Both the position numbers and the translations under genes were made by a program. A model generated the notes under the pieces. That model had not been told where the DNA came from and made no database searches. It saw nothing but the letters and a program-made list of their open reading frames with translations. A DNA stretch of 64,000 bases, taken from an uncultured Pseudomonadota bacterium. Its GTDB lineage: Bacteria > Babelota > Babeliae > Babelales > UBA12411. The DNA lies in NCBI GenBank assembly GCA_964491895.1, contig CAZBHK010000007.1:258-64257 (forward strand), given 5' to 3'. This document shows, in pieces, positions 2 to 31,604 of this stretch. How positions within the stretch are numbered: position 1 is the first letter of the stretch; every line of letters begins with the position of its first letter.

Positions 2-1123
2 GATGTTAGCCTTACTATATCTAATGAATCAACAGTATTTTTAGCTGATGTGACTACGGAGCTCAAAATTACAGATTCGATATTTATTTATGGACGTAAT
101 AATGTTATTGATGTTATTAGAGATTTAACTATATCAGGATTTATGTTTTTTTTTAATGAGAGTGAATTAACCTTTAATTTTAATGATAAGCATGATAGCC
201 CAACTATTTTTTTAGATAACAATCTTACTCTTTCTCCAGATAGCAGGTTAGTGTTTCAGGGATCAGGTAATGTTGAACTTAAAAATGGGGTATCTATAGC
301 TTTACAAAATGGAGGAACACTTGTTTTTAAGGATGATACGATAGCTTTAATAGAAATAGGTGGTACCGCTACAATAAAAGGTATAGGAAAAGTAGCTCTT
401 CAACAAGGTGGAACAATCAATGTTCGAGGAGATACACATTTGATTTTAGGTGATGATATTACAGATAGTCTTAATATTTTAGTTGACAATGCCCTTATTA
501 AAATATCAGGTCAAGATGCTTTACTTTCACTTCAAAAAGCATCAGCGGTATTAAGCTTTGATGAGGGAGGTGTTTTATTAATACAAAATTATGGAATATT
601 CGAAGTTAATGCTCTAAATGGTGTTGCATCTCCAGGAGAAGTTACTAGTTGGGTATGGACAGAAGATAGCGTTTTTGATCTTGATGAAAATGGTCTGTTA
701 TTAATAGGGAATAATCTTTCTGGTAGTGGCTTTAATTGGATTAATACTGATGCAAAAATAATTGAGGATGTTGCTCCGTCTAAAAATGGACTTATCAGGT
801 TATTAGGATCTAATCCAGTATTTGAGGGTGTGATGCCTAACAAGGGTTCTGTTGTTATAGATGGAAGAGCTAGTGATTTGGTTGGAGAATTATTGCAAAG
901 ATCTACATTACAAGATCCTCCAGCTATATTGAATCAAAGTACTTTATTTCTTGACTTAGATGGTACTTATAAGATAAGACTGACAAATGGACAAATTACA
1001 ACTCTTAGAGCTGGAGATATAGTTACTTTAGATCAAAATGGAAGAGTATATGGCAATAATGGGGGAAGCACGTTTACGATTGCTCCAGGTATTATTGGTT
1101 CAGTTATTACTAGGACAGAATAA
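2..1123 (+). CDS. C-terminal ~370 aa of a giant beta-helical surface-protein paralog (module gene A'); the 5' end lies left of the window
   Basis: The frame is open from position 2 (DVSLTISNESTVFLADVTTELKITDS), so the track's GTG start at 50 is internal. It aligns by eye with the last ~375 aa of ORF 4046..9901 (LKITDSI.I.GR.NVIDV, SELTF.FNDK.D.P, DSRLVF, G.FEVN.LN.VA..G, .RL.NGQI..L..GDI.T). Confidence 0.8.
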   Translation, partial: DVSLTISNESTVFLADVTTELKITDSIFIYGRNNVIDVIRDLTISGFMFFFNESELTFNFNDKHDSPTIFLDNNLTLSPDSRLVFQGSGNVELKNGVSIALQNGGTLVFKDDTIALIEIGGTATIKGIGKVALQQGGTINVRGDTHLILGDDITDSLNILVDNALIKISGQDALLSLQKASAVLSFDEGGVLLIQNYGIFEVNALNGVASPGEVTSWVWTEDSVFDLDENGLLLIGNNLSGSGFNWINTDAKIIEDVAPSKNGLIRLLGSNPVFEGVMPNKGSVVIDGRASDLVGELLQRSTLQDPPAILNQSTLFLDLDGTYKIRLTNGQITTLRAGDIVTLDQNGRVYGNNGGSTFTIAPGIIGSVITRTE

Positions 1124-1137
1124 GTCTAGGATATAAA

Positions 1138-2295
1138 ATGGAGAAAAAAGAAAATAAAATAATATATTTTTTAGTAATATTATTTTTGACTACAACATCT
1201 AATATTTTTTCTATTACTATTCATAATAATCAAGAGAAAAACTTCTTTCAATCAATAGATAATAGAATTTCAAAATTTTGGAATAAAAAAGTTATACCTA
1301 TAAGAATACTTGATGGATATATAACAGCACAACCGAGTTTATTTAATATTATTCAAGAAAAATTTAATAGATTGGTTTCTAATATAAATAATTTGGATAT
1401 ATCAGATGTTAATAAAGAATATTCTGCACAAGAATCAGGAGGTATATTTACTAAGCTTGGACAGAATTTAAAAATAAAGATTTTAGAAATTTGGAATTAT
1501 GAGCCACTTATTTTATTAACTGTTCTTGAGGGTCCTATAACATCAGAACCATCTATATTCGAAGGTTTTAAAATACCTAGCTTTAATGATAGTGGAAGTG
1601 TGTTGCATATTCTTCAAGGAGTAGGTAAAGAGGCACTTACGAATGAGTTGTCAGAGGAAAAGAGCTTTTTTGCTAAAGGAAAGCAGTATATTGCAGAAAT
1701 ATTAAAAAAGTTTTTATCACCTGAGCCTGATACAATAGCCTTGTATGTTACAAGAGAGAGAGAAAAATTCCAAAAAGAGATGGAAAAGTATCTTCAATAT
1801 GATGACTTAGAAAGTAAGTTAGAAACTTTTGAAAATCATCTTAAAGATTTTAATCAAAATATTGAACAGGACAAACAGGAGTTATTGGTAAGAACAAAAC
1901 ATATTAAAAAGTTAAAACATAATGATAGTTTGAAAAAAGGCTTAGCAACAAAGATTGATAAGATGGCATCAAAGATGGTTTTTGTGGATAAGGATTTACA
2001 AGATAGGTATGAAAAACTTTATTCTGAGTTTAATAATACAGTAGAGAAAAGACTTTCATCTACTCAGGACTCGATGAAAAATGAGATAGATAATAAATTT
2101 AAACAGCTAGAGAAAAAATTAACTAAGAAAGAAAATTCTGAGGATTATAATCTTAGTAGAAAGGAGATTTCTTATTTGATAAGAGAGTCTGTAAAAAGAC
2201 ATATGTACCTTTCAAAAGAAAGAGTTGGTAAGCAACGTAAGTATGATGCCAATGAAGTTGTTGAAATAATACAAAAAATGCTTTTAAATAAATAA
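1138..2295 (+). CDS. Anchored or secreted coiled-coil protein (module gene B')
   Basis: N-terminal hydrophobic segment IIYFLVILFLTTTSNIF and a K/E/Q-rich helical C-terminal half. The tail VKRHMYLSKERVGKQRKYD resembles VRRQMYVPRPAKRQYS of ORF 9898..10779. AGGA lies upstream of the ATG, 14 nt after the A' stop. Confidence 0.6.
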   Translation: MEKKENKIIYFLVILFLTTTSNIFSITIHNNQEKNFFQSIDNRISKFWNKKVIPIRILDGYITAQPSLFNIIQEKFNRLVSNINNLDISDVNKEYSAQESGGIFTKLGQNLKIKILEIWNYEPLILLTVLEGPITSEPSIFEGFKIPSFNDSGSVLHILQGVGKEALTNELSEEKSFFAKGKQYIAEILKKFLSPEPDTIALYVTREREKFQKEMEKYLQYDDLESKLETFENHLKDFNQNIEQDKQELLVRTKHIKKLKHNDSLKKGLATKIDKMASKMVFVDKDLQDRYEKLYSEFNNTVEKRLSSTQDSMKNEIDNKFKQLEKKLTKKENSEDYNLSRKEISYLIRESVKRHMYLSKERVGKQRKYDANEVVEIIQKMLLNK

Positions 2296-2296
2296 G

Positions 2297-3865
2297 ATGT
2301 TTAATAAATTAAAGTTAATTATAAGTTTTATTATTGTAAGTTCATTTTCTCCAAATGTTGCGGATCTTTTAGTTGAGCCTATAGAGGACGTGAATAAAGA
2401 TGGCAAGTTGGATATGATAGATATTATTCCTAAGCTTGCAACAAAGAGGCAGTTTAAGTTTGCTCGTGAATTAGAGAATCAGGTTAAGAAAGAAGTGGAA
2501 TGGCAAAATCGAAGAATGCATCGTGAAGCACTTCGAGATAAGGTTTATGATAGAGTTCGTCTACGTAAAGGCCGTGAAATTAATACTGATGATCTAATAT
2601 ACAAGATTCCTTCTTGGCCGTTTAGTTCTATTTACTATGCAGAAAAAGATTTATTTGAGATAAGTTTGAAGGCTAATGATTCAACAAAAGCATTTAATTC
2701 ATCAGGTGGTTCTCAAGATATATCTAAGTTAGTTTTTGGACAAAAAAGTATTAAGTTACAAGATATTTTACTTGTTTCTAAATTACTGAGGTCGGGTGTT
2801 TTACAATCTTTAACATCAAATCCTAATAATACTGGTCATTATTATTATATTTTGGCGAATCAGCCTATAGAGTTTGATGCCTCAATTAACAGCCAAAGGG
2901 CAACGGTAAGCTATGCAAGACATTTTAGGAATGGCGATATTTCATTTGGTTTAGAAGTTCCCATAGTGCGTAGAGAAAATAAACTTAAGTTAATTTCTTC
3001 AATTTCTTCTACTGATAGAAATAGTTTACAAAATAAAACACCGTATTTCTTTGCAAAATATGCAGATTTAGAAGAATTTTTTTCTGCTATTTTAGGTGCT
3101 AGTCATATATCATTTAATAAACATGATCGAGAGGTTGGCTTAGGTGATATATCTACCTTTATAAACTTTGAAATTAATTCTAAGAATTTTGAACGTTTTA
3201 TTATTGGCGCAAAATTACTTTTTCCTACAGCTAATGATAGGGAAGTGGATGTTTTATGGCATCCAGATTTGGGGAATGGAGGTTTTATAGAATGTTCAAT
3301 ATTTGCTGGTCTTTTGCTGGACTATAATAAATATTTTAATCCTTATGTCTTTGTAAATATTACAGGTGTTATTCCTGCAAAAGTCTCTCGTCGTGTTCCT
3401 ATTAAGAAGGAATATGATGGAGGAGATCCTAATTCTAACGTTGGAGATTTTTTAATACTTGGTGATACGGAAGTTCAATATAAGGCAACAACATTTTCTG
3501 AGTTTGATACATCTGTTCGTAGGTTTCCTAGTGTTGTAAAAAGTATAAAGATACATAAGGGCCCACAATTTTATTGTAAGTTGGGTAACGTCTTTGAAGA
3601 GGTATTGTTTAAGCATGGTTTTTTAGATACTTTCTATGACGTTAGATTAAAAGCTTCTGATTATGTAGGTTCTTATAAGGATAGTTCTATTAATCCTGCA
3701 GTGTTAAAGGAAAATACCTTTGAAATAGACCATCGTTTTGGTTTTAATTACGATTATCAGTTTAGTGGTAGGCAGAGGATTACAACTGGGTTTGCTATGT
3801 CTATAGCTGGTAGGAATACACCACAAACTTTTGAGGGTAATATAGCCTTTAGTACAGAGTTCTAA
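2297..3865 (+). CDS. Outer-membrane beta-barrel-like protein (module gene C')
   Basis: Signal-like N-terminus (LKLIISFIIVSSFSPNVA), a charged helical stretch, then alternating-polarity sequence ending ...EGNIAFSTEF with a terminal Phe, as in OMP C-terminal signatures. Clear paralog of ORF 10805..12400 (roughly 60% identical in the stretch I aligned by eye). Starts 1 nt after the B' stop. Confidence 0.6.
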   Translation: MFNKLKLIISFIIVSSFSPNVADLLVEPIEDVNKDGKLDMIDIIPKLATKRQFKFARELENQVKKEVEWQNRRMHREALRDKVYDRVRLRKGREINTDDLIYKIPSWPFSSIYYAEKDLFEISLKANDSTKAFNSSGGSQDISKLVFGQKSIKLQDILLVSKLLRSGVLQSLTSNPNNTGHYYYILANQPIEFDASINSQRATVSYARHFRNGDISFGLEVPIVRRENKLKLISSISSTDRNSLQNKTPYFFAKYADLEEFFSAILGASHISFNKHDREVGLGDISTFINFEINSKNFERFIIGAKLLFPTANDREVDVLWHPDLGNGGFIECSIFAGLLLDYNKYFNPYVFVNITGVIPAKVSRRVPIKKEYDGGDPNSNVGDFLILGDTEVQYKATTFSEFDTSVRRFPSVVKSIKIHKGPQFYCKLGNVFEEVLFKHGFLDTFYDVRLKASDYVGSYKDSSINPAVLKENTFEIDHRFGFNYDYQFSGRQRITTGFAMSIAGRNTPQTFEGNIAFSTEF

Positions 3866-4045
3866 AGATAAAATTCTCAGTATTTGACTTCAAATTTATT
3901 TAAATGTCAAAATCTATTCCAAATTCAGATTGGAGATTTATGCGTATACTAACGCATTTAATATTTTGTTTAATGTTATTTTCTAATGTAGTAAAAAGTT
4001 CAGAAGACCAGAGGATAATATAGATACGTATAAATATAAGGAAGT

Positions 4046-7000
4046 ATGGTCGTGAATCGGTTAAATTTACGTATTTTTTTAATTATTCTTTTTTTTTCTA
4101 CTAATTTGAATCCTCTTACTGTTGGTTCAGATACAGCAGTTTCGCGTTTATATTCGACACCAGTATTTCTTTCTGGGGATACTTTAAATAATATTGTAGG
4201 ATTTACTAAGTTAGAATCAGGGTTTAGTTTAGAAACTTCGGATGTTACTTGTACATTTGATGCATTTTTCCCAGTTTCAGGTTCCATATTATTAAATAGT
4301 GGATCACTATTTTTAAAACATGATTTAGTTTTATCTAATACAAGTTCAATAGTTTCTCTTGGATCTATACTAGGAAATAATAGGTCTATACAATTTCCTT
4401 CAGCGTTTACTGGATCAGATTTTGGTTCAGGTGGTTCAATTACTGCAGGTATTGTGCAATTAGCTTCCTCTGTAGTAGATGCTACTGTAAATGTTCAGAT
4501 TATTGATTGGGATCCGACTGGGTCATATTTGGCTGTAGGTATGCCAAATTCGGCAAGTGACCAGGAACTTCGGGTTTATTATTATAATTCAATAGATAAT
4601 TCACTTACGTTAACCTTTGTATATCCTCTTGGTGCTACAACTAATATTAATGCTCTTAAATGGTATCCGAAGTATACATCCCTTACGACAACAACTTCGC
4701 CGGCATTAGCTGTAGCAAAAAATAGTACTGATACAGATACTAATGCTGTAAGTATTTTTCAAGTAAGGCAAGCACCTGGTTTTTTAGGATTGGTAAGAAC
4801 AACAGCAATCGTAGCTGGTAGCAATCAGACATCCATTACATGGTCTAATAGTGGTAATTATCTAATATATGGACAGAATAATGCTAATGAAATTCAGGCA
4901 TATTCATATGTACCATCAACTGGTGTTGCTACTGCACTTGGTGCAGCAGTTTCTCCATTCAGTGTTACAAGATTAGTGAGTAAAAGAGCTATATCATTTA
5001 GTCCTGGAGATGATTATTTTGCAGTTGCAACTAACAGTGCTCTTAGTAGCCCACATATGGATATATATGCATTTTCTGCGGCAGGTATTGGAGCGGTTAT
5101 AATTGATAATGGTACAGCGCCTCTTATTGATGCAAATGCTAATTCTATTTATTCATTGGATTGGTCACCTACTGGTAGTTATATAGCGGTAGGTTTTGGT
5201 GGTGGTGCTATTCCTCATTTAGCAATTTATAAATTTGCACCTACTCCAACATTAACTCAGGTTGCAACCAATAGTGATGCAGCTGGCACTACTGTAGAAT
5301 GTGTTAATTGGACAAGTGATGGTAATAGACTATTAACTACTAACGGTCTCAATCAAATACGTATTTTTTCTTGGGATAAAGGAGCAGAGGCTTTATCTGT
5401 TGTAAATGGTAAAAGTTTGCCGACATTAAGTACAGCATCTTGTTGGCAAAGATTTGGTCTTAATAAATTTGGAATAGCCTTGAATACACCTGGAACAGTA
5501 CGTATATATGGTTTTGATCAGCAAGCGGTATTCCAAGACGTATCTTTATTCTTTAGAAATGATATAGATTTTAATAAAAATATTGATATTTTGGGTAATG
5601 TTTATATTAATATGTTAGGTAATCAGTTTTCTATAAGTTCTGGTGGTAAGTTTACTATTTATCCTAATAGTACTCTTTATTTTGATAGTTCTGCTATTAA
5701 TTTAAATGTTCATGAGCCTTTTGTATTAATAGATAATACTTCTCAATTAGCATTACATAATGCAACTATTTTACTTGAGTCTGATATTGTTTTTAATAAT
5801 GGTGGTATAAGTATTTCCCAAGGTGATACTTATATTGAGGGAGCTCATACCTTTTCATATAACAGTGTATATAGTTCTACTATAGATAGTTTTTCATCAT
5901 TAAGTTTAGTTAACGGTGTTACTTTATGTATAGGAGATTCTGCTGATGGTTCTTTATTAAAAATAGGATCACCATTAGAGTTTGTTGATAATACTTCTGA
6001 ACTAATATTACAAGAATCAACGCTTTTTATTACAGATACTGGTTTACATCTTTTAAAAGGTAAAATGAGGATAGATCAAAATGTTGTTTTGGATATAGCG
6101 AATACACAAACAACATTTGGGTTAATTATAGGTGATGGTACTACCGCTAATGATTTTGAAATATATTTGAGTCTTGCAGCGTCTAAACTTCAGTTGGAGA
6201 ATGGTGCTCTAATATACAAAAATAACAGTAATTCTAGAGTGAGTTATCATAGTAATGGAGTGATATATTTACAGGATGGATCTTTATTATATTTAGATCG
6301 ACCATTAGAATTATTAAACGGTATATTAAGATATGATAATGTTACTTCATTAAGTGTGCCTACATTATCTAATTCATATTTCACTGTTGATAATATTATA
6401 GGTAATTATAGTGGTAATCATAAGAATATAGAATATAATTTAACTGGCACTATTAAAGATTTACAAAATTTTGTATTAGATACAAATGATATCTTTTCTA
6501 TTAATCAAGGAATCTTGACTGATGTAATTGTAACAGTCTCTAGAGGTAATAATATTTTTAATGGTTTATCCAAGTATGAAGGTTTGCTTTCTTTAGTTGA
6601 TTATAATAGTACTGTTACCTGGGTTAATTTAGTTTTATCTCATAATGATATTACCTTGAATGGTGGTAAATTAATAATTGGTTCAAATTTAATGTTTGAA
6701 GAAATGTCGTCATTGAGAACTTCGGGTACAGTAGTGATACAAGAATACATTTTATGTTTAAGTTCGATTGAACATACCGAAGATGCAAATTTATATATTG
6801 ATTCTTCTTCTGGAATTATATGTTTACAAAGTAATATTACTTTAGATAATAGTTGGACGGTTAGTGGCAATCTTCGTATTCATGGTAATGGTTATAATAT
6901 ATTGTTTGATACATCAGGAGAGTTTGTTGTTGAACGAGGATCTACTCTGGAACTTCAGGATGTACATATAGACTCACTTTTTGATAGTAAATTACGTTGT

Positions 7001-9901
7001 ATGGATAGTGCTGGTACTATTAAAATAAATAATACTATTTTAGATATTAGTGCACCATATACATTTGCTCAAGGAAAATTAGTATTTAAAGGAGATTCAT
7101 TTTTAAAAGGTAAAACAACATTTTCTTATGAGTCTAATCAATCTAGTGTTATTGAAGATGGAAATCTTACAATTGACAAAAATCTTATAGCCTCAATAGG
7201 TAGATCTGGTAATCAGACTTCTAATGAGCCGTTATTATTTACAAATAATACGTCTATATTGACTTTGGATGGTGCTACATTACAGGTTACAACTTCTGGT
7301 ATGCAATTAACTAAAGGAGAGTTGCATTTAAGGCGAAATGCTATTTTAGATATACAGTCTACTCAGACAACATTTGGATTAATTATTGGTGATGGTACTG
7401 CATCTAATGATTGTAATATTGATATTGATTTTGTGACAATAAAAAATGGAGCATTTACATATAAGAATACAGTTGATAACTATATAAATTTTGATACAAG
7501 TGTTTCTAGATTATATTTTTTAACTCCAGCTACATTTAATATAGAAAAACCTTTGCTGTTGACTGATGGCGAGTTGAAAATTTCAACATTTGATCTTATT
7601 AACGTTTATGATGCTGGAAATTTTACTGTTCAAAATTTATTACAAACTATTGAAAATAATAATATAAAAATGATTGGTTCATTTACATTAGGAGCATCAG
7701 GTTTAGATTTAAGTAGTACGGACTTCTTTAGAAATTTAGAAGGAGTCTTTAACCTTGGTCCACTAAATATTAATGAAACAGGAGCGGTCATTTCAGGTTA
7801 TGGTGGAACAATAAATTCTGATATTATTTTTTTAAATAATACTATAAGTGCAACAATAAGTACTGGGCTTTCTACTTTTTTGTTAGGTAATATTATTTTA
7901 AATGGTGGTAAGACTTTCTTATCGAACAATGTTACTTTTGGTCAAGATTTTAATTTTACAGGTTCTGGTACAATTGATTCAGCTTGTTATAAAGTTGATT
8001 TTGGTCGAACTGATTTAACATTTACAGATTCTTTAATTTGGATTAATGGTTCCTTAGATATTAATAGTAACTTAACATTAGCTACATCAATTACATTTTA
8101 TGGCACTACAAAAATCACTGGTAATGGCCATATTTTAGACTTTGCACCAGGTGGTGGTATTTATATAGCACCAGGAGGACATTTAATTTTAACAGAACTA
8201 TCTATTCATAATTTAGGAATTACTACAGATAATTTATCTATGTTAGGAGTTGATAGTCAGATACATATGTCAAATGTGTTTGTCAATCTTTCTAATAACT
8301 ATACAACTACTATAGGTGGTATCATAATAGAGGGACCAACTATTTTTGGGTTGAAAAATTATAATTGGACTTTTGATTTAAGCGCTTCTGTATCAATAAA
8401 AGGTGTTACTTTATGGATAGATTCAATTGGAGAGAGTAACCGTGGTACATTATTATTTGGATCACCATTACTAAATTATCTTACATTTATTAATAGTGGT
8501 ACATATAAAGAAGTTGCTGATGCAAGATCGTTTGATCTTTCCCTAAGTAATAGCCAGACAATTCTTACTATTACCGATAACATTAACTATAATAGTCAAG
8601 CTATTGTAACAATAGCTGGAGATATCTTAATACCTGTAGATTTATCAGATGCTTCTGGAGTAATTATTCTTGATCATGAACGGGGAGTTAATTTTAATGT
8701 GCATCCTGCATTGTCCTTACACCTTACATTATCAGATGCTTCAGAAGTTTTATCTAAGGATCTTGATACTAGTTTGAAGATTACGGACTCTATCCAAATT
8801 AAAGGAAGGGATAATGTAATAGATGTTTCTCAAACTTTTACTCTTCTTGGAAGTTTATTATTTGAGCCTAATAGCGAACTTACTTTTAGATTTAATGATA
8901 AGGGTGATCGACCTAGGGTGTATTTATCCAATAGTATTACAATTTCTGCGGATTCTCGGCTTGTGTTTAAGAATATAGGCGAGTTCTTAGTTAAGGATGG
9001 AGAATCTATATCATTTGAGGGAGGGTTAGTTAATCTGTCTGAACTTTCTGTTGAAGATAGAGCTTATTTTCATATAGAAGAAAATCTTACTGATACGGCA
9101 GTAGTGACTTTCAAGGGAACGTTACCTTCTGGTGATGGTAGAATTAGCATGCTAAATGGTGGTACTATAGAGATTGAAGATTCTCGACATCTTATTATAG
9201 GTAATGCTGTTACGGATAACTTTGATATTGTGGCGTCTGACAATGGATTACTTAAGGTAGCTGGTATGGCGGCGCGTATTTCTTTACAGTTAGCTACTAT
9301 GAGGTTGATATTTGAGTTGGGTGGTACTCTTTTAGTGCGAGATGGTGGAGTTTTTGAAGTTAACTCATTAAATGATGTTGCTGCTGCTGGTAATATTGGA
9401 ACCTGGTTATTTAATGATAATGGAGTATTAGATATAGGTGAGAATGGTATATTCTCCTTGGGTGAAAATATATCTGCTAATAGCTTTAATTTTAAGGCTA
9501 TTGGTGGGATAATAAATACGAGTCCAAGTATCTTATTGAATGGTAAAGTTGGTCTTTTATCTGAGACAGCATTTATTGGGATGATTTCTCATAGACCGTT
9601 TGAACTTACAAGTGTTTCTGCCATAGAATTAGTTTCTGGATTATTACAGAGAGCATTATTACAGGACATACAATCTACTCAGGCAAATTTGAGTGTAAGT
9701 GTCTTATTTATTGACTCTTTAGGGGTACATAAGGTAAGACTAAATAATGGTCAGATTGCTAGTTTAGACTCTGGAGATATTATTACTAGGGATGATTCTA
9801 CGACAGGTATAGTTTATGGAATAGGTGCTGGTGAATCTTCATTTGCAATACAACCAAGAAGTGATTTGACGGAGCCTATATTTTACAGGTATAGAAAATG
9901 A
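4046..9901 (+). CDS. Giant (1951 aa) secreted protein: signal peptide, WD40-like beta-propeller, repetitive beta-helix-like region, conserved C-terminal domain (module gene A)
   Basis: Uninterrupted 5.9-kb ORF with AAGGAAG before the ATG and a hydrophobic N-terminus (LRIFLIILFFSTNL). Seven WD-like blades (IDWDPTGSYLAVG, LKWYPKY, ITWSNSGNYLIYG, ISFSPGDDYFAVA, LDWSPTGSYIAVG, VNWTSDGNRLLTT, ..GTVRIYGF). Many NGG(T/K/I)-type and N/T/S-rich turns typical of passenger-like beta-helices. Confidence 0.85.
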   Translation: MVVNRLNLRIFLIILFFSTNLNPLTVGSDTAVSRLYSTPVFLSGDTLNNIVGFTKLESGFSLETSDVTCTFDAFFPVSGSILLNSGSLFLKHDLVLSNTSSIVSLGSILGNNRSIQFPSAFTGSDFGSGGSITAGIVQLASSVVDATVNVQIIDWDPTGSYLAVGMPNSASDQELRVYYYNSIDNSLTLTFVYPLGATTNINALKWYPKYTSLTTTTSPALAVAKNSTDTDTNAVSIFQVRQAPGFLGLVRTTAIVAGSNQTSITWSNSGNYLIYGQNNANEIQAYSYVPSTGVATALGAAVSPFSVTRLVSKRAISFSPGDDYFAVATNSALSSPHMDIYAFSAAGIGAVIIDNGTAPLIDANANSIYSLDWSPTGSYIAVGFGGGAIPHLAIYKFAPTPTLTQVATNSDAAGTTVECVNWTSDGNRLLTTNGLNQIRIFSWDKGAEALSVVNGKSLPTLSTASCWQRFGLNKFGIALNTPGTVRIYGFDQQAVFQDVSLFFRNDIDFNKNIDILGNVYINMLGNQFSISSGGKFTIYPNSTLYFDSSAINLNVHEPFVLIDNTSQLALHNATILLESDIVFNNGGISISQGDTYIEGAHTFSYNSVYSSTIDSFSSLSLVNGVTLCIGDSADGSLLKIGSPLEFVDNTSELILQESTLFITDTGLHLLKGKMRIDQNVVLDIANTQTTFGLIIGDGTTANDFEIYLSLAASKLQLENGALIYKNNSNSRVSYHSNGVIYLQDGSLLYLDRPLELLNGILRYDNVTSLSVPTLSNSYFTVDNIIGNYSGNHKNIEYNLTGTIKDLQNFVLDTNDIFSINQGILTDVIVTVSRGNNIFNGLSKYEGLLSLVDYNSTVTWVNLVLSHNDITLNGGKLIIGSNLMFEEMSSLRTSGTVVIQEYILCLSSIEHTEDANLYIDSSSGIICLQSNITLDNSWTVSGNLRIHGNGYNILFDTSGEFVVERGSTLELQDVHIDSLFDSKLRCMDSAGTIKINNTILDISAPYTFAQGKLVFKGDSFLKGKTTFSYESNQSSVIEDGNLTIDKNLIASIGRSGNQTSNEPLLFTNNTSILTLDGATLQVTTSGMQLTKGELHLRRNAILDIQSTQTTFGLIIGDGTASNDCNIDIDFVTIKNGAFTYKNTVDNYINFDTSVSRLYFLTPATFNIEKPLLLTDGELKISTFDLINVYDAGNFTVQNLLQTIENNNIKMIGSFTLGASGLDLSSTDFFRNLEGVFNLGPLNINETGAVISGYGGTINSDIIFLNNTISATISTGLSTFLLGNIILNGGKTFLSNNVTFGQDFNFTGSGTIDSACYKVDFGRTDLTFTDSLIWINGSLDINSNLTLATSITFYGTTKITGNGHILDFAPGGGIYIAPGGHLILTELSIHNLGITTDNLSMLGVDSQIHMSNVFVNLSNNYTTTIGGIIIEGPTIFGLKNYNWTFDLSASVSIKGVTLWIDSIGESNRGTLLFGSPLLNYLTFINSGTYKEVADARSFDLSLSNSQTILTITDNINYNSQAIVTIAGDILIPVDLSDASGVIILDHERGVNFNVHPALSLHLTLSDASEVLSKDLDTSLKITDSIQIKGRDNVIDVSQTFTLLGSLLFEPNSELTFRFNDKGDRPRVYLSNSITISADSRLVFKNIGEFLVKDGESISFEGGLVNLSELSVEDRAYFHIEENLTDTAVVTFKGTLPSGDGRISMLNGGTIEIEDSRHLIIGNAVTDNFDIVASDNGLLKVAGMAARISLQLATMRLIFELGGTLLVRDGGVFEVNSLNDVAAAGNIGTWLFNDNGVLDIGENGIFSLGENISANSFNFKAIGGIINTSPSILLNGKVGLLSETAFIGMISHRPFELTSVSAIELVSGLLQRALLQDIQSTQANLSVSVLFIDSLGVHKVRLNNGQIASLDSGDIITRDDSTTGIVYGIGAGESSFAIQPRSDLTEPIFYRYRK
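5582..6871 (+). repeat. Internal long repeat unit 1 (~425 aa) within the giant ORF
   Basis: IDILGNVYINMLGNQFSISSGG.., GDTYIEGAHTFSYNS.., VTLCIGDSADGSLLKIGSPLEFVDNTSELILQESTLFITDTGLHLLKGKMRIDQNVVLDIANTQTTFGLIIGDGTTANDF align with unit 2. Boundaries are approximate. Confidence 0.6.
6872..8110 (+). repeat. Internal long repeat unit 2 within the giant ORF
   Basis: LRIHGNGYNILFDTSGEF.., GDSFLKGKTTFSYES.., PLLFTNNTSILTLDGATLQVTTSGMQLTKGELHLRRNAILDIQSTQTTFGLIIGDGTASNDC parallel unit 1. Boundaries are approximate. Confidence 0.6.
8111..8510 (+). repeat. Partial third repeat unit within the giant ORF
   Basis: KITGNGHILDFAPGGGIYIAPGGHLIL.., GPTIFGLKNYNWTFD.., VTLWIDSIGESNRGTLLFGSPLLNYLTFINSGT match the first third of units 1 and 2. 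Confidence 0.5.
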
Positions 9902-10779
9902 GGGCTGAAATGAAGGGTTTAATATTTGCTATTTTGTTACCTATGTATGTTTGTGCAGATACAAATTTAATTTCTAAAAAGAATTTTAATGAAGAGTCTT
10001 TTGACGAAGATGATTTACAACAAAAAATTCAATCAAGACTTAAAGACGTTCAATATATGAAATCTGAGCTTCAGCTAAAAAAAACAGCAACTGACACTGA
10101 TCCTGGTGTAATGTTTAAAGTTGGAAGATTGTTTATTAGCATTAAATCACAGTTATATAAAATGTATGTAAAATTTCAAACTGCTGTAGAGAACAGGCTT
10201 AGTGTTCAAGAAGAACTTTCTAAACTTCAACAAGACAAGTTACTGAGAGTAGAAAAGACGTTAGAAAGCTTAAATCAAAATCTTCACGATACTGAAGAAC
10301 GTGTTCTTTCTAAGGTTGCTAATGCTACACAAATAGGTTCTATTCAGGATGAGCTTTCTGAAAAAGTGAAAAACGAAATCGTACAGTTAAAAAAAGACGT
10401 AGAGAAAGAAAAAGAAGAATTAGTTTCAAAAGTTGTTGGACATTCTTCATCATCTGTTAAGTTACTTGAAGATCAAATTTCTAAAGTTAAAGAAGAAGTT
10501 AGTAAGGAAAATTTGGATAAGAGATTTGAGGCTATGCTTTCTAATGTGATTTCTGCAACACAAGAAATGGTAAAGAAAGAAGTGGCAAGAAGTTTGGCTG
10601 GTGTATTGAATAAAAAATCATTACCAGAAGTGAGTCCTTCTGTTAAGGCAGATAATGGAAAGGGCGGCATATCAGAACTTATACAAAAGGAAGTAAGACG
10701 ACAAATGTATGTGCCTAGACCCGCTAAGCGACAGTACTCAGTTAGAAGAGATTACGTTGACGAAGAAGATTTAGATTAA
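9898..10779 (+). CDS. Anchored or secreted coiled-coil protein (module gene B)
   Basis: The ATG overlaps the stop of the giant ORF (ATGA). Hydrophobic N-terminus MKGLIFAILLPMYVCA, E/K/L-rich heptad-like sequence, and a C-terminal tail related to ORF 1138..2295. Confidence 0.65.
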   Translation: MRAEMKGLIFAILLPMYVCADTNLISKKNFNEESFDEDDLQQKIQSRLKDVQYMKSELQLKKTATDTDPGVMFKVGRLFISIKSQLYKMYVKFQTAVENRLSVQEELSKLQQDKLLRVEKTLESLNQNLHDTEERVLSKVANATQIGSIQDELSEKVKNEIVQLKKDVEKEKEELVSKVVGHSSSSVKLLEDQISKVKEEVSKENLDKRFEAMLSNVISATQEMVKKEVARSLAGVLNKKSLPEVSPSVKADNGKGGISELIQKEVRRQMYVPRPAKRQYSVRRDYVDEEDLD

Positions 10780-10804: not shown

Positions 10805-12400
10805 TTGAATGTGTATAAAATATTCCTTGTTTTCCTATTATTAACAAGCTTCTTTGTACAGGCAAATGCTGAAGTTACTCCAGAGCTTCAACGTAAAATT
10901 AGAAAAGAGATAGAAGCTCAACAGCGCTTGCAGTACAAGGAGAAGGTAAAACAAAAAAATCTAGCTGAAAAAATCAAATCTAAAGTCAAACAAGAGATCA
11001 AATGGCAAAATTATAAGATCCAGCGTCAAGCTAAAAAAGATCAGCTTGCTGGTAGGGTCCGTATGCATAGCCCTTCACGATTTGATCATGAAGATTTTAT
11101 CTATAAAATTCCAACATGGCCATTTAATTCAGTTTTCTATGCTGAGAATGACCTGTGTGAGTTGAATCTTAAGGTTAATGGTGCTTCAAGAGCGTTTGAC
11201 TCTTCAGGATCATCAAGAGATATTTCTAGATTAGTTTTTGGAGAAAAGGATTTAGTGCTTCAAGATATCTTATTAGCTTCCAAATTGCTTAAGGCTGGTA
11301 AAATACAAGCTAATTCTGCCAAGTTAGTGGGACCACCACCTGTTACCGCTTCTCGTTATCATTATTATTATATTTTGGCTGACCAACCAATAGTTTTTGA
11401 TGCATCTACCAGTAGTCAGAGATTAGACTTAAATTATGCCAGACATTTTAGAGATGGTGATATTTCTTTTGGGCTAGTAATCCCTGTTATACGTAAAGAG
11501 AATAATATTAGACTGGAATCTGGTATTTCTTCGGTTATACGTAGTCAGTTAGAAGCTGTAAGTCCTAGATTTGCTGATAGGTTTGGTACACTGCAAGATT
11601 TATTACAGGAAATTTTAGGTGCAAGTGGTATTTCATTTAATAAAAAGGATAGAGAAGTAGGGATAGGCGATGTCCAGGTCTTTGCTAACTTGGAAATTCC
11701 TAGCGAATATTTTGAACGGTTTGTTACAGGATTCAAGGTTTCTATTCCAACAGCCAATGGCAGGAAGACTGATAAACTTTGGGATCCTGAGCTAGGCAAT
11801 GGTGGGTTTTTAGAGATGTCCTTGTTTATGGGTTTACTTAAGAGCTTTAATAAGTATTTTAATCCTCATATGTATTTAGAGCTTACTGGCGCTATTCCAG
11901 CAACTGTTAATAGACGTGTACCTATTAAGAAGGAGTATGATGGAGTTTTACCTGCTAGTGGTGTTCCTATAGGAGATTTTTTGCTTTTAGGTCAGGCTGA
12001 GATTCAGTATCTAGGCGGTACTACTTTTAGTGAGTTTGATACTCAGGTAAGGAATTTTCCTATTACTGTTAAGGGTGTAAAAATACGTAGGGGGCCTCAA
12101 ATTAATCTTAGAATAGGTAACATTATAGAAGAGGTCTATTCACGTAAGGGATTCTTAGAGCTTTTTTATGACCTTAGGTTAAAGGGTGCAGATTATCTGA
12201 GCTTGGGTAGAAGCTGGGATGGTTACGATCCTTCTATATTAACTGACAATACTTTTGAATCTGAGCATCGCTTGGGATTTAGCTATGATTATCAATTTTC
12301 AGGAAGACAAAGGGTCAATATTGGTTTTCTCGCAGGTATTACCGGTAGAAATACTCCTCAGGTTTTAGAGGGTAATATAGCATATAGCTTAGAGTTTTAG
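10805..12400 (+). CDS. Outer-membrane beta-barrel-like protein (module gene C)
   Basis: Signal peptide (KIFLVFLLLTSFFVQANA/EV) and a charged helix (KQEIKWQNYKIQRQAKKDQ). Paralogous to ORF 2297..3865 along its whole length and ends EGNIAYSLEF. The start may be TTG 10805 or GTG 10811. Confidence 0.65.
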   Translation: MNVYKIFLVFLLLTSFFVQANAEVTPELQRKIRKEIEAQQRLQYKEKVKQKNLAEKIKSKVKQEIKWQNYKIQRQAKKDQLAGRVRMHSPSRFDHEDFIYKIPTWPFNSVFYAENDLCELNLKVNGASRAFDSSGSSRDISRLVFGEKDLVLQDILLASKLLKAGKIQANSAKLVGPPPVTASRYHYYYILADQPIVFDASTSSQRLDLNYARHFRDGDISFGLVIPVIRKENNIRLESGISSVIRSQLEAVSPRFADRFGTLQDLLQEILGASGISFNKKDREVGIGDVQVFANLEIPSEYFERFVTGFKVSIPTANGRKTDKLWDPELGNGGFLEMSLFMGLLKSFNKYFNPHMYLELTGAIPATVNRRVPIKKEYDGVLPASGVPIGDFLLLGQAEIQYLGGTTFSEFDTQVRNFPITVKGVKIRRGPQINLRIGNIIEEVYSRKGFLELFYDLRLKGADYLSLGRSWDGYDPSILTDNTFESEHRLGFSYDYQFSGRQRVNIGFLAGITGRNTPQVLEGNIAYSLEF

Positions 12401-12494
12401 CTGGTTTTAGATGTCTTGAGTGGTTGCAATGTTTTCTTGCATTGTTATACTCCAATTATTTACTAAATGTCTAAAATTAGCTTTGCAGGTTGTT

Positions 12495-13916
12495 ATGTAT
12501 TTATCTAAATTTTCAAGAATATTTCTTTTAATCTTTTTTGTGTCAGTTGATGTTGTATTTGGTGAAATTGATGAAACGCAGGCAGCTGATGTTGTGGACT
12601 TTTTAAATAGGTCGACAAGAACACGTAGAGGTACAAAATTTCAGCGTTTTATTGATAAGGCTAATTTATCTGAAACACTTTCTAGTCTCAGGAATAAAAC
12701 ACAGAAGTTTTATGAAGAGAATGAATTAGCTGATATTGAAGCAGGTATATTAAAGGCTGAAAATCCTATAGATAAAGAAAAATTAGAAAAAAATCATAAT
12801 TGGGTTTATTACAAACAAAGAAGAGAACTTGAAAACGCTTTGGATACTGCTTTATTGTCAGGATCAGCGAATCCATGGACAGATGCTTTTGTAGTGGGAA
12901 TGATAGCTTCTCAACCTAAAATTTATGAAGCGCTTCAGGACGAGGGTGTTTTTGATGCACTAAAGAATGAAAATGATGGAGCTGTTGCTGAAGCTGCCAA
13001 AAAGGTAGGGATAGGTTTGCTAGCAGTTTCTGCTGAATCTGTAGGCAAGACAGTTAATAATATAGTCTCACAGAACTTTGGTAGTCCGTTGGAAAGAATA
13101 GCAAGGGTTATATTTGGTAGTATTGGTAATTTTTCTAGAAAGATTTGGACCAAGTCGGTCAAGATCTATTATGGTGTTCAAGGCGAGCCGTTTGCCCATC
13201 AAGAGGTTAAAGATTTTGGCATAATTGTTGATACTATGCTTGAGGATTATAAAGAAACCTGTAATAAGGCTGTTAATAATATGAGTAATCGAGAACGTAT
13301 TAATAGGAAGAAGAATCTTGATGACGCAGAAGAAGTTCTAGAAAAAATAGATGAAATAGTCTTCGAAATAACTAAGTCTCATGTTAAAAAATCAATGGAT
13401 ATTTCTATATTAGGAGATTCTAAGACTACTATATTAGAGAAAATATTTGAGGCTTATGATAAGGATTTTATCCCTAAAGAATTAGAGGGTGTTAAGACCT
13501 TTGCTGAGTTGATTAATGTAATACAGATGGACTCTGACTGGAAGGATGAGCGTGAGCATTCCTTAAATAGTATAGTTGGTCTAGTTGACTACTTTAATAT
13601 TAGAATGGCTTACTATTCTAAGGATAAAAGTTCTATGGAGTTTCGTTATGCATCTATGATCAGAGAGCGTTTATTAGAGTTTGCATCTATGATATCTCTT
13701 GCTACTTCTGATAAATATTTTGGTAGTGAGCAAGCTCAAAGACGTCTTAGACGAATAAGAAGTGGTTTGGCTAAAAATTTTGAGAATCTATTAAAGTATA
13801 TTCCTAATCTTGAGTTCGCTGGTGAAGAGAAGAAGGTAGAAGCTAAGAAAAAACGTACACGACCATCTTTTGGTGAATATGAAGAAGAAGATTATGGATT
13901 TAATAGGTTGATGTAA
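12495..13916 (+). CDS. Secreted, largely helical protein of unknown function (cluster gene D)
   Basis: The ATG at 12495 gives MYLSKFSRIFLLIFFVSVDVVFG/E, a signal-peptide-like N-terminus. The track's upstream GTG extension (12420) lacks one. Acidic/basic tail KKRTRPSFGEYEEEDYGF. No motif I recognise. Confidence 0.6.
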   Translation: MYLSKFSRIFLLIFFVSVDVVFGEIDETQAADVVDFLNRSTRTRRGTKFQRFIDKANLSETLSSLRNKTQKFYEENELADIEAGILKAENPIDKEKLEKNHNWVYYKQRRELENALDTALLSGSANPWTDAFVVGMIASQPKIYEALQDEGVFDALKNENDGAVAEAAKKVGIGLLAVSAESVGKTVNNIVSQNFGSPLERIARVIFGSIGNFSRKIWTKSVKIYYGVQGEPFAHQEVKDFGIIVDTMLEDYKETCNKAVNNMSNRERINRKKNLDDAEEVLEKIDEIVFEITKSHVKKSMDISILGDSKTTILEKIFEAYDKDFIPKELEGVKTFAELINVIQMDSDWKDEREHSLNSIVGLVDYFNIRMAYYSKDKSSMEFRYASMIRERLLEFASMISLATSDKYFGSEQAQRRLRRIRSGLAKNFENLLKYIPNLEFAGEEKKVEAKKKRTRPSFGEYEEEDYGFNRLM

Positions 13917-14740
13917 TGTATCATAAACTTGTATTGATTTTATTATTATCGTCTAGTTTTTTAAGTGCTAATCTTAATGAGATTAATGTTGAACATGTGC
14001 AGAAACACAAAGAGTATTATCTAAAGCAAGCTCGTAATCTAAAATATTTCAAGGTAACTGCTTGCGTATCTGCTACTGCAATAATATCTGCTATTATAAT
14101 AAAAATGTTATATAGCACTAAGCAGCCGATTGTTAAGTCTATTATAGATCCAAAGTTAAAAGAAACTTTATTTGCTGAGTTGGTACAAAAAGAACTTGAG
14201 AAAAAGAATAGAACATCAATAGAGGCATTTACTGCTTTTTTTAAACGCAATATTATATCGGGCTTGAGTTTGACTGCAACAAGTCTTGTTTTGGGTTTTG
14301 GAGATGAAGTTAAGGGCTCTTTATTTATTAGAATTAAGCAATTTTTAAAATATAAAATTGACCCAGTAATATTTAATGAAGCTCAAGTTTTTGATAACAC
14401 ATATAGTTTACATTTATACTTAACTGATTTTGTAGAACAGGCAAATACTGAGATAGATAAAGCTCATCATAGGGAACAGATAGTGTTAGGCTATGGCTTG
14501 CTTTTAGAAACAGTTGAACGATTCATGGCTGCTTTGTGTCTACAGGCACAAGCTTCTCAGGAGAAATGGCTTCTTAATTCGGAAAATAAGCTTTTTAAGG
14601 CTATGAGCTCATTAAAATTTAAAGTTGAACAAATACTTGATAATGAAAATCCTAATATTAAAGAGGTAGAGGTTGCTTTAAATCATTTAGTACATTGTCT
14701 TGGTATGGTTGCTAAAAATTGTGAGGCTCAAATTGTATGA
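13916..14740 (+). CDS. Membrane protein of unknown function (cluster gene E)
   Basis: The start overlaps the gene D stop by 1 nt (TAATG). Signal-like N-terminus LVLILLLSSSFLSA plus hydrophobic segments VTACVSATAIISAIIIKMLY and IISGLSLTATSLVLGF. Confidence 0.6.
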   Translation: MYHKLVLILLLSSSFLSANLNEINVEHVQKHKEYYLKQARNLKYFKVTACVSATAIISAIIIKMLYSTKQPIVKSIIDPKLKETLFAELVQKELEKKNRTSIEAFTAFFKRNIISGLSLTATSLVLGFGDEVKGSLFIRIKQFLKYKIDPVIFNEAQVFDNTYSLHLYLTDFVEQANTEIDKAHHREQIVLGYGLLLETVERFMAALCLQAQASQEKWLLNSENKLFKAMSSLKFKVEQILDNENPNIKEVEVALNHLVHCLGMVAKNCEAQIV

Positions 14741-31391: not shown

Positions 31392-31468
31392 TGGTGTGCC
31401 CGACAGGATTCGAACCTGTGACCTACGGATTAGAAATCCGTTGCTCTATCCAACTGAGCTACGGGCAC
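31392..31468 (-). tRNA. tRNA-Arg (anticodon UCU), CCA encoded
   Basis: Reverse complement gtgcccgtagctcagttggatagagcaacggatttctaatccgtaggtcacaggttcgaatcctgtcgggcacacca folds as a cloverleaf. Anticodon stem acgga/tccgt, loop tt-TCT-aa. Confidence 0.9.
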
Positions 31469-31471
31469 ATA

Positions 31472-31547
31472 TGGTCGGGGTGGCCAGACTCGAACTGGCG
31501 ACCCCTCGCTCCCAAAGCGAGTGCGCTACCAACTGCGCCACACCCCG
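31472..31547 (-). tRNA. tRNA-Pro (anticodon UGG), CCA encoded
   Basis: Reverse complement cggggtgtggcgcagttggtagcgcactcgctttgggagcgaggggtcgccagttcgagtctggccaccccgacca. Anticodon stem ctcgc/gcgag, loop tt-TGG-ga. Confidence 0.9.
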
Positions 31548-31604
31548 AATAAGATTTCTAAAGAGTTTATATAATACTTAGACTTGAGTAAATATATATT
31601 TTTA

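What the first reader, a model, noticed from the sequence alone, without database searches (positions are those of the whole stretch)
4046..9901. 1951-aa protein fusing a seven-bladed WD40-like propeller to a repetitive beta-helix-like fibre
Residues ~150-490 (nt ~4498-5520) contain seven blades with eukaryote-style WD signatures: W(D/S)PTGSYLAVG, WSNSGNYLIYG, FSPGDDYFAVA, WTSDGNRLLTT, each ending in a hydrophobic (I/V)Y.(F/Y) strand. These are followed by ~1000 aa built from two and a third copies of a ~425-aa unit (starts ~5582, ~6872, ~8111). Each unit opens with a (I/L)..GNG..(I/L).F motif and contains the near-identical block QTTFGLIIGDGT(T/A). A propeller at the tip of a passenger-like helix, behind a signal peptide, is an unusual architecture. 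It suggests a ligand- or host-binding head on a stalk whose length evolves by unit duplication.
Basis: seen in the sequence. Interest (0 to 1): 0.7.

Follow-up and report, generated by a model that had tools for sequence, protein, structure and literature searches.

The report
Propeller-bearing beta-solenoid fibre with membrane partner
This gene, from an uncultured intracellular-parasite bacterium of the phylum Dependentiae (TM6), encodes a long, rod-like exported protein with a seven-bladed propeller near one end; it belongs to a very large unannotated protein family, and its tail domain always sits beside a probable outer-membrane partner gene that may export or anchor it.

Summary
ORF 4046-9901 encodes 1951 aa:
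- a signal peptide;
- a ~100-aa cap;
- a seven-bladed WD40-type propeller (28 strands, aa 136-503);
- two full copies and one partial copy of a ~425-aa unit (27% identical, E=1e-32);

AlphaFold models are confident (pLDDT 86.7 and 81.8). Outside the propeller they are all short-strand beta-solenoid. Their only weak PDB resemblances are right-handed beta-helix proteins.

The unit defines a large family with no Pfam or NCBIfam model: 2333 representative proteins, and every named one is from Dependentiae/TM6. Members carry 1-7 units, and units within one protein are up to 95% identical. About a fifth of the best-scoring members carry the propeller, always at the cap/unit-1 junction.

The new result concerns the rarer ct domain. 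It is always found next to a conserved ~530-aa secreted protein that ends in ...(E/D)F, which looks like an outer-membrane barrel signal. A coiled-coil gene usually lies between them. I saw ten such cassettes, two in this window.

Best reading: a surface fibre or adhesin, exported or anchored through this partner. It resembles type V secretion functionally but fails every membership test for it. The function is inferred, not shown.

The parts
4046..9901 (+). Whole gene, 1951 aa. The true start is the ATG at 4046; a public gene call of the identical protein (P0001) starts at GTG codon 137 and so loses the signal peptide and the cap.
   Evidence: The N-terminal 125 aa are conserved in P0002, P0003 and P0004. 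A purine-rich AAGGAAG lies at 4038-4044.
4046..4123 (+). Sec-type signal peptide (aa 1-26, MVVNRLNLRIFLIILFFSTNLNPLTV). There is no lipobox cysteine.
   Evidence: Read from the sequence. It is conserved in position in homologues. 111 of 149 family members pass a strict, crude signal-peptide rule.
4118..4435 (+). N-terminal cap (aa 25-130), homologous to the last quarter of a repeat unit (unit HMM positions ~312-390). It opens with the family motif GSDTAVS.
   Evidence: In the model it forms short strands with pLDDT 81-96.
4451..5554 (+). Seven-bladed WD40-type beta-propeller (aa 136-503; 28 strands), inserted between the cap and unit 1.
   Evidence: It is absent from P0004 and from 122 of the 150 family members at exactly this junction.
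5573..6889 (+). Repeat unit 1 (aa 510-948). It is beta-solenoid, with ~23-aa coils at its start and longer hairpins later.
   Evidence: pLDDT mostly above 90.
6848..8125 (+). Repeat unit 2 (aa 935-1360).
8111..8473 (+). Partial unit 3 (aa 1356-1476; first ~105-120 positions of the unit). A block conserved in the propeller-bearing subfamily follows it (TTIGGIxVxGPTxFGLKNYNWTFD...).
8519..8635 (+). Low-confidence segment (aa 1492-1530; pLDDT 25-36) between the stalk and the C-terminal domain. It may be a flexible hinge.
8711..9898 (+). C-terminal 'ct' domain (aa 1556-1951). It is all-beta and solenoid-like with one conserved helix (aa ~1859-1866), and it ends in a conserved ...VYG.N.G..F.I motif. 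Among the top 150 family members it occurs only in P0034, P0049 and P0112 (besides P0001, which is the target itself), and in further loci found by neighbourhood searches.
9898..10779 (+). 293-aa signal-anchored coiled-coil protein. Its start overlaps the target's stop codon (ATGA), which suggests translational coupling.
   Evidence: A coiled-coil gene sits in the same position in loci L009-L012.
10805..12400 (+). 531-aa secreted protein ending ...NIAYSLEF. It is the candidate outer-membrane beta-barrel partner.
   Evidence: Homologues lie next to ct-bearing genes in L006/L013, L007, L009-L012, L014 and L016.
2..1123 (+). C-terminal end of an upstream paralogue, cut by the window edge. It carries the same ct domain (41% identity to target aa 1558-1937, E=4e-71).
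1138..2295 (+). 385-aa signal-anchored coiled-coil protein of the upstream cassette.
2297..3865 (+). 522-aa paralogue of the candidate outer-membrane partner (51% identical to 10805-12400). It ends ...NIAFSTEF.

Best explanation
The gene encodes a Sec-exported, rod-like surface fibre of a Dependentiae (TM6) bacterium. Dependentiae are obligate intracellular parasites of protists.

Shown:
- The chain is a beta-solenoid made of a cap, 2 1/3 copies of a ~425-aa super-repeat, and a solenoid-like C-terminal domain (ct).
- A seven-bladed WD40-type propeller is looped out at the cap/unit-1 junction, near the N-terminal end.
- The protein belongs to a large, modular, phylum-restricted family in which unit number, propeller and ct are independently present or absent.
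- The ct domain is consistently encoded next to a conserved ~530-aa secreted protein with a C-terminal ...(E/D)F end, usually with a coiled-coil protein between them. In this window the three genes are packed as an operon.

Inferred:
- After Sec export, the ct domain docks onto, or is threaded by, the partner protein, which I take to be an outer-membrane beta-barrel. The coiled-coil protein would act as a periplasmic accessory.
- The rod would then be displayed with its C-terminus at the membrane, and the propeller ~30 nm away as the distal binding head for a host or prey surface ligand. The ~30 nm is my rough estimate: about 1470 solenoid residues at ~23 aa and 4.8 A per coil.
- Functionally this resembles type V secretion and two-partner adhesins and the chlamydial Pmp family, but it is built from unrelated parts.
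For: Architecture:
- Pfam propeller hits.
- Internal repeat E=1e-32.
- AF2 models with pLDDT 86.7 and 81.8, all-beta, 28 propeller strands.
- Foldseek: WD40 propellers at E=4e-11. For the propeller-free model the only resemblances are right-handed beta-helix proteins: RsaA, Ag43, TibA, pertactin, EspP, Fap2, PL6 lyases and tailspikes.

Family:
- 2333 representative proteins at E<=1e-3.
- Modular architectures.
- All named members are Dependentiae/TM6 hypothetical proteins.
- Members lie in tandem arrays.
- Units within one protein are up to 95% identical.

Export:
- A signal peptide is conserved across the family.

Partner:
- Every partner-like gene seen is adjacent to, or within two genes of, a ct-bearing gene. 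This holds for the window (twice), L006/L013, L007, L009, L010, L011, L012, L014 and L016.
- It holds whether the search starts from the partner (then 97) or from ct (then 116), and down to 26% ct identity.
- Family members without ct (the loci of P0002, P0003 and P0004) have no such gene in their flanks.
- All partner homologues have a signal peptide and end in an alternating hydrophobic strand plus terminal Phe. This is the classical outer-membrane-protein C-terminal signature (established knowledge: Struyve et al. 1991).
- The target's stop codon overlaps the coiled-coil gene's start, and the partner gene follows 25 nt later.
Against: - No experiment and no localisation data exist.
It matches no Pfam, NCBIfam or PDB outer-membrane family. 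A crude amphipathic-strand count was not significant (5 against 2.1 +/- 1.5).
Solenoid handedness, stacking of the cap on unit 1, and the propeller's orientation are therefore unverified.
- The solenoid has no significant structural neighbour (best PDB E=0.012).
- Most family members lack ct and the partner, so they must reach their destination by another route. This weakens the idea that the partner is needed for export rather than for anchoring.
- Outer-membrane biogenesis in Babeliales is reported as degenerate (PMC4776705).
- WD40 proteins of Dependentiae have been proposed to be secreted host effectors (PMC4378268).
Confidence: 0.55

Rival explanations
1. It is a secreted soluble effector. 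The protein is released and acts inside or on the host cell, where the WD40 propeller mimics eukaryotic scaffold proteins and the solenoid is only a spacer. The neighbouring genes would be a release machinery or unrelated.
For: - Pfam's best matches are eukaryotic propeller families.
- The literature on Babela and TM6 proposes that signal-peptide-bearing WD40, ankyrin and similar proteins manipulate the host (PMC4378268; PMC4776705).
- 44% of C. destructans proteins have signal peptides (PMC6561590).
Against: - About 1500 aa of rigid solenoid, with a unit count varying from 1 to 7, is typical of extracellular fibres rather than cytosolic effectors.
- 122 of the 150 family members have no propeller at all, so the propeller cannot be the family's core function.
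- No known translocation system into the host cytosol is linked to the gene.
- ct is tightly coupled to a protein with an outer-membrane-type C-terminus.
Confidence: 0.2
2. It is a structural surface coat (S-layer-like). The family forms a self-associating protein layer on an envelope that lacks LPS, and the propeller and ct domains mediate lattice or anchoring contacts rather than host binding.
For: - The top PDB hit of the solenoid model is the Caulobacter S-layer protein RsaA, followed by the self-associating autotransporter Ag43.
- The family is very large and abundant, with many paralogues per genome.
- Babeliales lack LPS synthesis (PMC4776705; PMC6561590).
Against: - The RsaA match is not significant (E=0.012, probability 0.30, TM 0.14-0.17).
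- The strong diversity of paralogues and of lengths argues against a single lattice-forming subunit.
- No calcium-binding RTX motifs are present.
Confidence: 0.12
3. It is a beta-helix enzyme: a polysaccharide lyase or hydrolase, like tailspikes or PL6 lyases, that degrades host glycans, with the propeller as a carbohydrate-binding or second catalytic module.
For: Weak Foldseek hits to PL6 alginate lyases, AlgG, PL3 pectate lyase and phage tailspikes. A neighbour gene in L007 has a faint Pectate_lyase_5 hit.
Against: - None of these hits is significant.
- There are no Pfam or NCBIfam enzyme matches even at E<=1-10.
- The invariant unit positions are almost all Gly, Leu or Phe, which is structural. 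Only one invariant Asp (D194 of the unit) is present.
- Repeating a 425-aa unit up to seven times is not how beta-helix enzymes are built.
Confidence: 0.07
4. It is an artefact: the long repetitive ORF is an assembly or annotation error.
For: The sequence comes from a metagenome assembly, and the public gene call used a different start.
Against: - There are no long DNA repeats.
- The units are only 27% identical.
- An identical protein lies on an independent 66-kb contig.
- Collinear homologues occur in many samples.
Confidence: 0.01

Closest known systems
Classical (type Va) autotransporter adhesins, e.g. Ag43, pertactin, TibA, EspP
   Same: N-terminal Sec signal and a long beta-helical extracellular rod. 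These are among the best, though weak, structural neighbours of the solenoid model. Both depend on an outer-membrane barrel for display; for this protein that dependence is inferred.
   Different: No C-terminal 12-strand barrel domain lies in the same chain (no Pfam hit; ct models as solenoid-like). The putative barrel is a separate gene. The solenoid is organised in ~425-aa super-repeats, and a propeller is inserted in it.
Two-partner secretion (type Vb): TpsA exoproteins such as FHA with TpsB/Omp85 transporters
   Same: A beta-helical exoprotein and its outer-membrane partner are encoded side by side. Several cargo paralogues can lie next to one partner (L006/L013, L016).
   Different: There is no N-terminal TPS domain. 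The partner shows no POTRA or ShlB-type Omp85 signature. The module that co-occurs with the partner is C-terminal. An additional coiled-coil component is present.
Chlamydial polymorphic membrane proteins (Pmps)
   Same: A large paralogous family of beta-helical, signal-peptide-bearing proteins in an obligate intracellular bacterium. Pmps are adhesins (PMC8326573, PMC10715098).
   Different: GGA(I/L/V) and FxxN motifs are not enriched (1 and 15 against chance values of 0.26 and 8.7). There is no Chlam_PMP or autotransporter Pfam hit, and no sequence similarity.
WD40 / seven-bladed beta-propellers (Tup1, Ciao1, WDR5; bacterial 5yzv)
   Same: Seven four-stranded blades, with Foldseek E down to 4e-11 and TM (normalised by target) up to 0.81. 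One Pfam WD40-clan model scores above its cut-off.
   Different: Sequence identity is only 10-18%. The blades lack the canonical GH...WD dipeptides and instead read W(S/D)P(T/D)G.Y(L/I)A(V)G ... (I/V)Y.F. The domain is exported and embedded in a solenoid, not cytosolic.
Caulobacter S-layer protein RsaA; type I-secreted RTX adhesins
   Same: Long beta-helical surface proteins. RsaA is the top, non-significant, PDB hit. Secretion and anchoring information is C-terminal in those systems.
   Different: Those proteins have no Sec signal peptide, carry RTX GGxGxD repeats (0 here), and use an ABC transporter with a membrane-fusion protein and TolC. None of these is next to this gene.

Membership tests
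WD40-type seven-bladed beta-propeller superfamily | Seven blades, each a four-stranded antiparallel sheet, closing into a ring | tested here: met
   28 strands at aa 136-503 in a confident model. The top 50 Foldseek PDB hits are all seven-bladed propellers, mostly WD40, with E from 4e-11.
WD40-type seven-bladed beta-propeller superfamily | Sequence match to a WD40-clan profile above its curated threshold | tested here: met
   PF12894 ANAPC4_WD40 scores 29.6 bits against a cut-off of 22.9. PF00400 WD40 scores 25.4 against 27 (just below). The THOC3 propeller model gives E=4e-10 but lies far below its family-specific cut-off.
Type Va autotransporter | C-terminal 12-stranded beta-barrel translocator domain in the same polypeptide (Pfam Autotransporter PF03797) | tested here: not met
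   No Pfam or NCBIfam hit at E<=1. The C-terminal 400 aa model as short-strand solenoid plus one helix.
Type Va autotransporter | Sec signal peptide plus beta-helical passenger | tested here: met
   Signal peptide. The solenoid models have only beta-helix proteins as neighbours, though weakly.
Two-partner secretion (type Vb) | N-terminal TPS domain (PF05860) in the exoprotein | tested here: not met
   No Pfam hit. The N-terminal cap is a piece of the family's own repeat unit.
Two-partner secretion (type Vb) | Omp85-type TpsB partner with POTRA domains | tested here: not met
   The 522- and 531-aa partners have no Pfam, NCBIfam or PDB sequence match. Their fold was not modelled.
Two-partner secretion (type Vb) | Conserved adjacency of exoprotein and outer-membrane partner genes | tested here: met
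   Ten cassettes in at least nine contigs. This is an analogy, not homology.
Chlamydial Pmp family | Multiple GGA(I/L/V) and FxxN tetrapeptides; Chlam_PMP repeats | tested here: not met
   GGA[ILV] occurs once (chance 0.26). FxxN occurs 15 times (chance 8.7, shuffle maximum 17). No Pfam hit.
RTX / type I-secreted adhesins | GGxGxD nonapeptide repeats, no Sec signal, adjacent ABC transporter and membrane-fusion protein genes | tested here: not met
   0 RTX motifs. A Sec signal is present. The neighbours carry no ABC or MFP domains.
Outer-membrane beta-barrel proteins (for the 531-aa partner) | Signal peptide and a C-terminal beta-signal ending in an aromatic residue | tested here: met
   All 8 homologues whose ends were printed finish in an alternating hydrophobic strand plus (E/D)F.
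Outer-membrane beta-barrel proteins (for the 531-aa partner) | A closed transmembrane beta-barrel fold | tested here: inconclusive
   A crude amphipathic-strand count gave 5 windows against 2.1 +/- 1.5 in shuffles.
New Dependentiae repeat-unit family (defined here) | At least one ~425-aa unit matching the profile built from alignment A2, preceded by the GS(D/E)T.VS cap | tested here: met
   Units at aa 510-948 and 935-1360 (E=1e-154 to 1e-159 against my unit HMM), and cap at aa 26-130. 2333 relatives found.

The most novel reading that the evidence does not exclude
The ct domain, the signal-anchored coiled-coil protein and the ~530-aa ...EF-terminated protein together form a previously undescribed outer-membrane export or anchoring pathway specific to Dependentiae. 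It would be a 'split' system that works like type V secretion but recognises its cargo through a C-terminal docking domain and is built from components unrelated to Omp85/TpsB or autotransporter barrels. It would display a large, fast-evolving repertoire of modular solenoid fibres used to attach to protist hosts.
Probability: 0.3. Interest if true: 0.8.

Novelty: new variant of a known kind. Interest (0 to 1): 0.62.

Why it matters
Dependentiae (TM6) are a widespread phylum of obligate parasites of protists, and almost nothing is known about how they attach to or enter their hosts.

- This gene exposes a very large family (at least 2333 clusters at 50% identity) that has no Pfam or NCBIfam model and that genome annotations label only as 'hypothetical protein'.
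- The family's modular logic is now readable: cap, n units, an optional propeller, and an optional docking domain.
- A three-gene cassette gives a concrete, testable candidate for how these fibres reach or stay on the cell surface in a lineage with a degenerate outer membrane.
- If confirmed, it would add a new family of adhesin-like surface proteins and possibly a new outer-membrane partner system. It would also provide profiles for annotating thousands of proteins in metagenomes.

Tried and rejected
- The search for homologous proteins with the unit alignment and with a 32-protein family alignment returned almost nothing useful. The word pre-filter was swamped by low-complexity and WD40 candidates. 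The exhaustive HMMER search was what revealed the family.
- The search for related loci on genome contigs failed with the unit alignment because it had no conserved 7-10-column stretch. With the full-length partner alignment it chose patterns in the unconserved N-terminus and found nothing. It worked only with the trimmed four-sequence alignment.
- Sequence searches of PDB gave nothing usable: the whole protein, the unit profile and the partner profile.
- NCBIfam found nothing for the target, and only sub-threshold hits far below the curated cut-offs for its neighbours.
- My first alignment for structure job 2 (A7) scattered the ct fragments along the query and was discarded. I rebuilt it with collinear rows.
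- A crude amphipathic-strand test for a barrel in the partner was inconclusive.
- Readings considered and rejected: classical autotransporter, TpsA, Pmp, RTX adhesin (each fails a defining feature; see the membership table) and assembly artefact.
- Literature searches found no description of this family in Dependentiae papers.
Full report
**1. The observation**

The window is AT-rich (about 31% G+C). It holds an ORF at 4046..9901 (+) of 1951 aa. Pfam recognises only WD40/propeller models, over aa 149-457: THOC3 propeller E=4e-10, and ANAPC4_WD40 29.6 bits against a curated cut-off of 22.9. NCBIfam recognises nothing.

A segment-against-segment BLASTP confirms the internal repeat. Residues 525-941 match 947-1353 at 27% identity over 432 aa (E=1e-32). 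Residues 525-644 match 1361-1475 at 31% (E=4e-4). HMM-defined boundaries are 510-948, 935-1360 and 1356-1476.

At the DNA level there is no tandem repeat and no direct repeat longer than 28 nt. The duplication is therefore ancient and cannot be an assembly artefact.

The N-terminus has the n/h/c layout of a Sec signal peptide. Together with the following ~100 aa it is conserved in all close homologues. The ATG at 4046 is thus the true start. A public gene call of the identical protein (P0001) starts at GTG codon 137 and loses this part.

**2. Structure**

An AlphaFold2 model of aa 1-960, built on a 62-sequence alignment, has mean pLDDT 86.7 and pTM 0.72.
- It contains 28 strands between aa 136 and 503, which is seven four-stranded blades.
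- Its best PDB neighbours are seven-bladed WD40 propellers: Tup1 at E=4e-11, and Ciao1 with TM up to 0.81 normalised by target. A bacterial WD40 (5yzv) and bacterial lactonase-type propellers score almost as well, so 'eukaryote-style' is not established.
- The rest of the model (aa 25-117 and 507-960) is made of short strands. At the start of the unit these recur about every 23 residues, three per turn, which is the pattern of a beta-solenoid.

A second model covers aa 930-1951 (15-row alignment, pLDDT 81.8).
- It is again all-beta.
- It has a disordered stretch at aa 1492-1530.
- The C-terminal domain is well predicted (aa ~1532-1939; pLDDT mostly 75-96).

This propeller-free model has no significant structural neighbour. 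Every weak PDB hit is nevertheless a right-handed beta-helix protein: RsaA (E=0.012), PL6 alginate lyases, Ag43, TibA, HK620 tailspike, EspC/EspP, pertactin and Fap2. Against viral models the weak hits are mostly phage fibres, neck appendages and pectate-lyase-like proteins, along with giant-virus collagen-like proteins.

I could not read the coordinates. Handedness and the packing of the cap against unit 1 are therefore unverified.

**3. The family**

I built a profile from eight aligned units (A2) and searched it exhaustively. It found 2333 representative proteins (50%-identity clusters) at E<=1e-3, and 1077 at E<=1e-30. Every member that carries a name is a 'hypothetical protein' of Candidatus Dependentiae, candidate division TM6 or Candidatus Babeliales.

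I mapped my own domain HMMs onto the best 150. This gives a simple grammar:
- a signal peptide;
- a cap, which is itself the last quarter of a unit and starts with GS(D/E)T.VS;
- n full units;
- a C-terminal half unit.

Among members without a propeller, n ranged from 1 to 7, in 34, 54, 25, 9, 2, 1 and 1 proteins respectively.

28 of the 150 carry the propeller, always between the cap and unit 1. In P0004 and the other propeller-less members the cap runs directly into unit 1. The propeller is therefore an insertion at a solenoid junction, not the chain's tip.

Units within one protein are up to 95% identical (P0024) or 74% (P0008). The mean between proteins is 29%. Length does evolve by unit duplication in the family. 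In the target, however, the two units are old, and the two-unit state is shared by 19 of the 28 propeller-bearing members.

Family genes often lie in tandem arrays.

**4. The C-terminal domain and its partners**

Residues 1556-1951 ('ct') are not a half unit. This domain recurs in the truncated ORF at the window start (41% identity, E=4e-71). Among the top 150 it recurs only in P0034, P0049 and P0112, apart from P0001, which is the target itself.

The window holds two parallel cassettes:
- ...1123 (ct) / 1138-2295 (coiled coil) / 2297-3865 (522 aa);
- target / 9898-10779 (coiled coil) / 10805-12400 (531 aa).

The 522- and 531-aa proteins are 51% identical. The target's stop codon overlaps the next gene's start (ATGA), and the third gene follows after 25 nt.

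Homologues of the 522/531-aa protein lie beside ct-bearing genes elsewhere:
- P0112 locus, L006: 36-37% identity, E=1e-83 to 1e-91;
- P0049 locus, L007: 38% identity, E=1e-101.

Searching species-representative genomes for this protein gave four loci (L009-L012). In each, a ct-bearing family member lies upstream on the same strand, separated by a signal-anchored coiled-coil gene.

Searching metagenomes in the other direction, starting from ct, gave two further independent cassettes (L014, L016) at only 26-28% ct identity.

Loci of family members without ct (P0002, P0003, P0004) show no such gene.

All partner homologues have a signal peptide. Those whose C-termini I examined end in an alternating hydrophobic strand plus (E/D)F, which is the classical C-terminal signature of outer-membrane barrel proteins. 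They match no Pfam, NCBIfam or PDB family.

**5. Interpretation**

Shown:
- the domain architecture;
- the fold class;
- the size, modularity and taxonomic restriction of the family;
- the conserved ct / coiled-coil / partner neighbourhood.

Inferred: the protein is exported by Sec. Its ct domain engages the partner, a probable outer-membrane barrel, for translocation and/or anchoring. The rod (roughly 30 nm by my estimate) then presents the propeller as a distal binding head towards the protist host.

This works like type V secretion and adhesins and like the chlamydial Pmps. Every membership test for those families fails:
- no autotransporter barrel, TPS domain or POTRA;
- no Pmp motifs and no RTX motifs.

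Rivals are listed with their weights: a secreted intracellular effector, as proposed in general terms for Dependentiae WD40 proteins (PMC4378268, PMC4776705); an S-layer-like coat; a beta-helix enzyme; and an artefact.

**6. Novelty**

I found no description of this family or cassette in the papers searched, and no curated model covers it. I rate it a new variant of a known kind: a beta-helical surface fibre with a dedicated membrane partner.

The most novel reading still open is that the cassette is a new outer-membrane export or anchoring pathway (probability about 0.3).

Noticed in passing
window 15595-18639 (+): A 1014-aa protein with no Pfam family and with a Walker-A-like GVGKST motif. 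It is conserved near the ct/partner cassette in two other genomes (L012: 40% identity, same relative position; L011: 46%). It may be a further component of the system, or it may only reflect conserved gene order.
   Followed up: partly
window 12420-15602 (+): Three further consecutive ORFs (498, 274 and 300 aa) with N-terminal hydrophobic segments and no family match. The 300-aa one has weak relatives near the cassettes in L011 and L012.
   Followed up: partly
window 22558-23769 (+) and 52898-53338 (-): An IS605-family OrfB/TnpB-like gene (OrfB_IS605 plus the Cas12f1-like TNB domain). A 146-aa fragment elsewhere in the window is 40% identical to its N-terminus.
   Followed up: no
window 28654-30468 (-): A 604-aa protein with a PLA2_B lysophospholipase catalytic domain (E=9e-32). 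As far as I recall this is a mainly eukaryotic enzyme type, so it is a possible host-membrane effector.
   Followed up: no
window 41714-44455 (+): A 913-aa protein whose only Pfam match is a partial Sigma54_activat AAA+ domain (aa 668-763). The remaining ~800 aa are unassigned.
   Followed up: no
window 31395-31680, 52766-52920, 54365-54438 (all -): Six tRNA genes in three groups.
   Followed up: no
L009 and L010 (GTDB genome contigs CAYVQB010000032.1, CAZFDQ010000055.1): Two MAGs titled 'uncultured Pseudomonadota bacterium' carry the complete cassette of ct-bearing fibre, coiled-coil gene and partner, with 43-45% identity to the window's partner protein. Either the label is a placeholder or mis-binning, or the cassette exists outside Dependentiae.
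   Followed up: no
P0005, P0006, P0007, P0157; L008 398-7114; L014 1-5130 and 13324-17040: Related proteins combine a half unit with long runs of the same WSPDG.YLAVG-type blades (two or more propellers, up to 4361 aa). The blade type and the solenoid unit are thus recombined in several other architectures.
   Followed up: partly
L016 7692-9242: A 517-aa protein that consists of little more than a ct domain, directly upstream of a partner homologue. This minimal pair would be the easiest experimental test of the ct-partner interaction.
   Followed up: no
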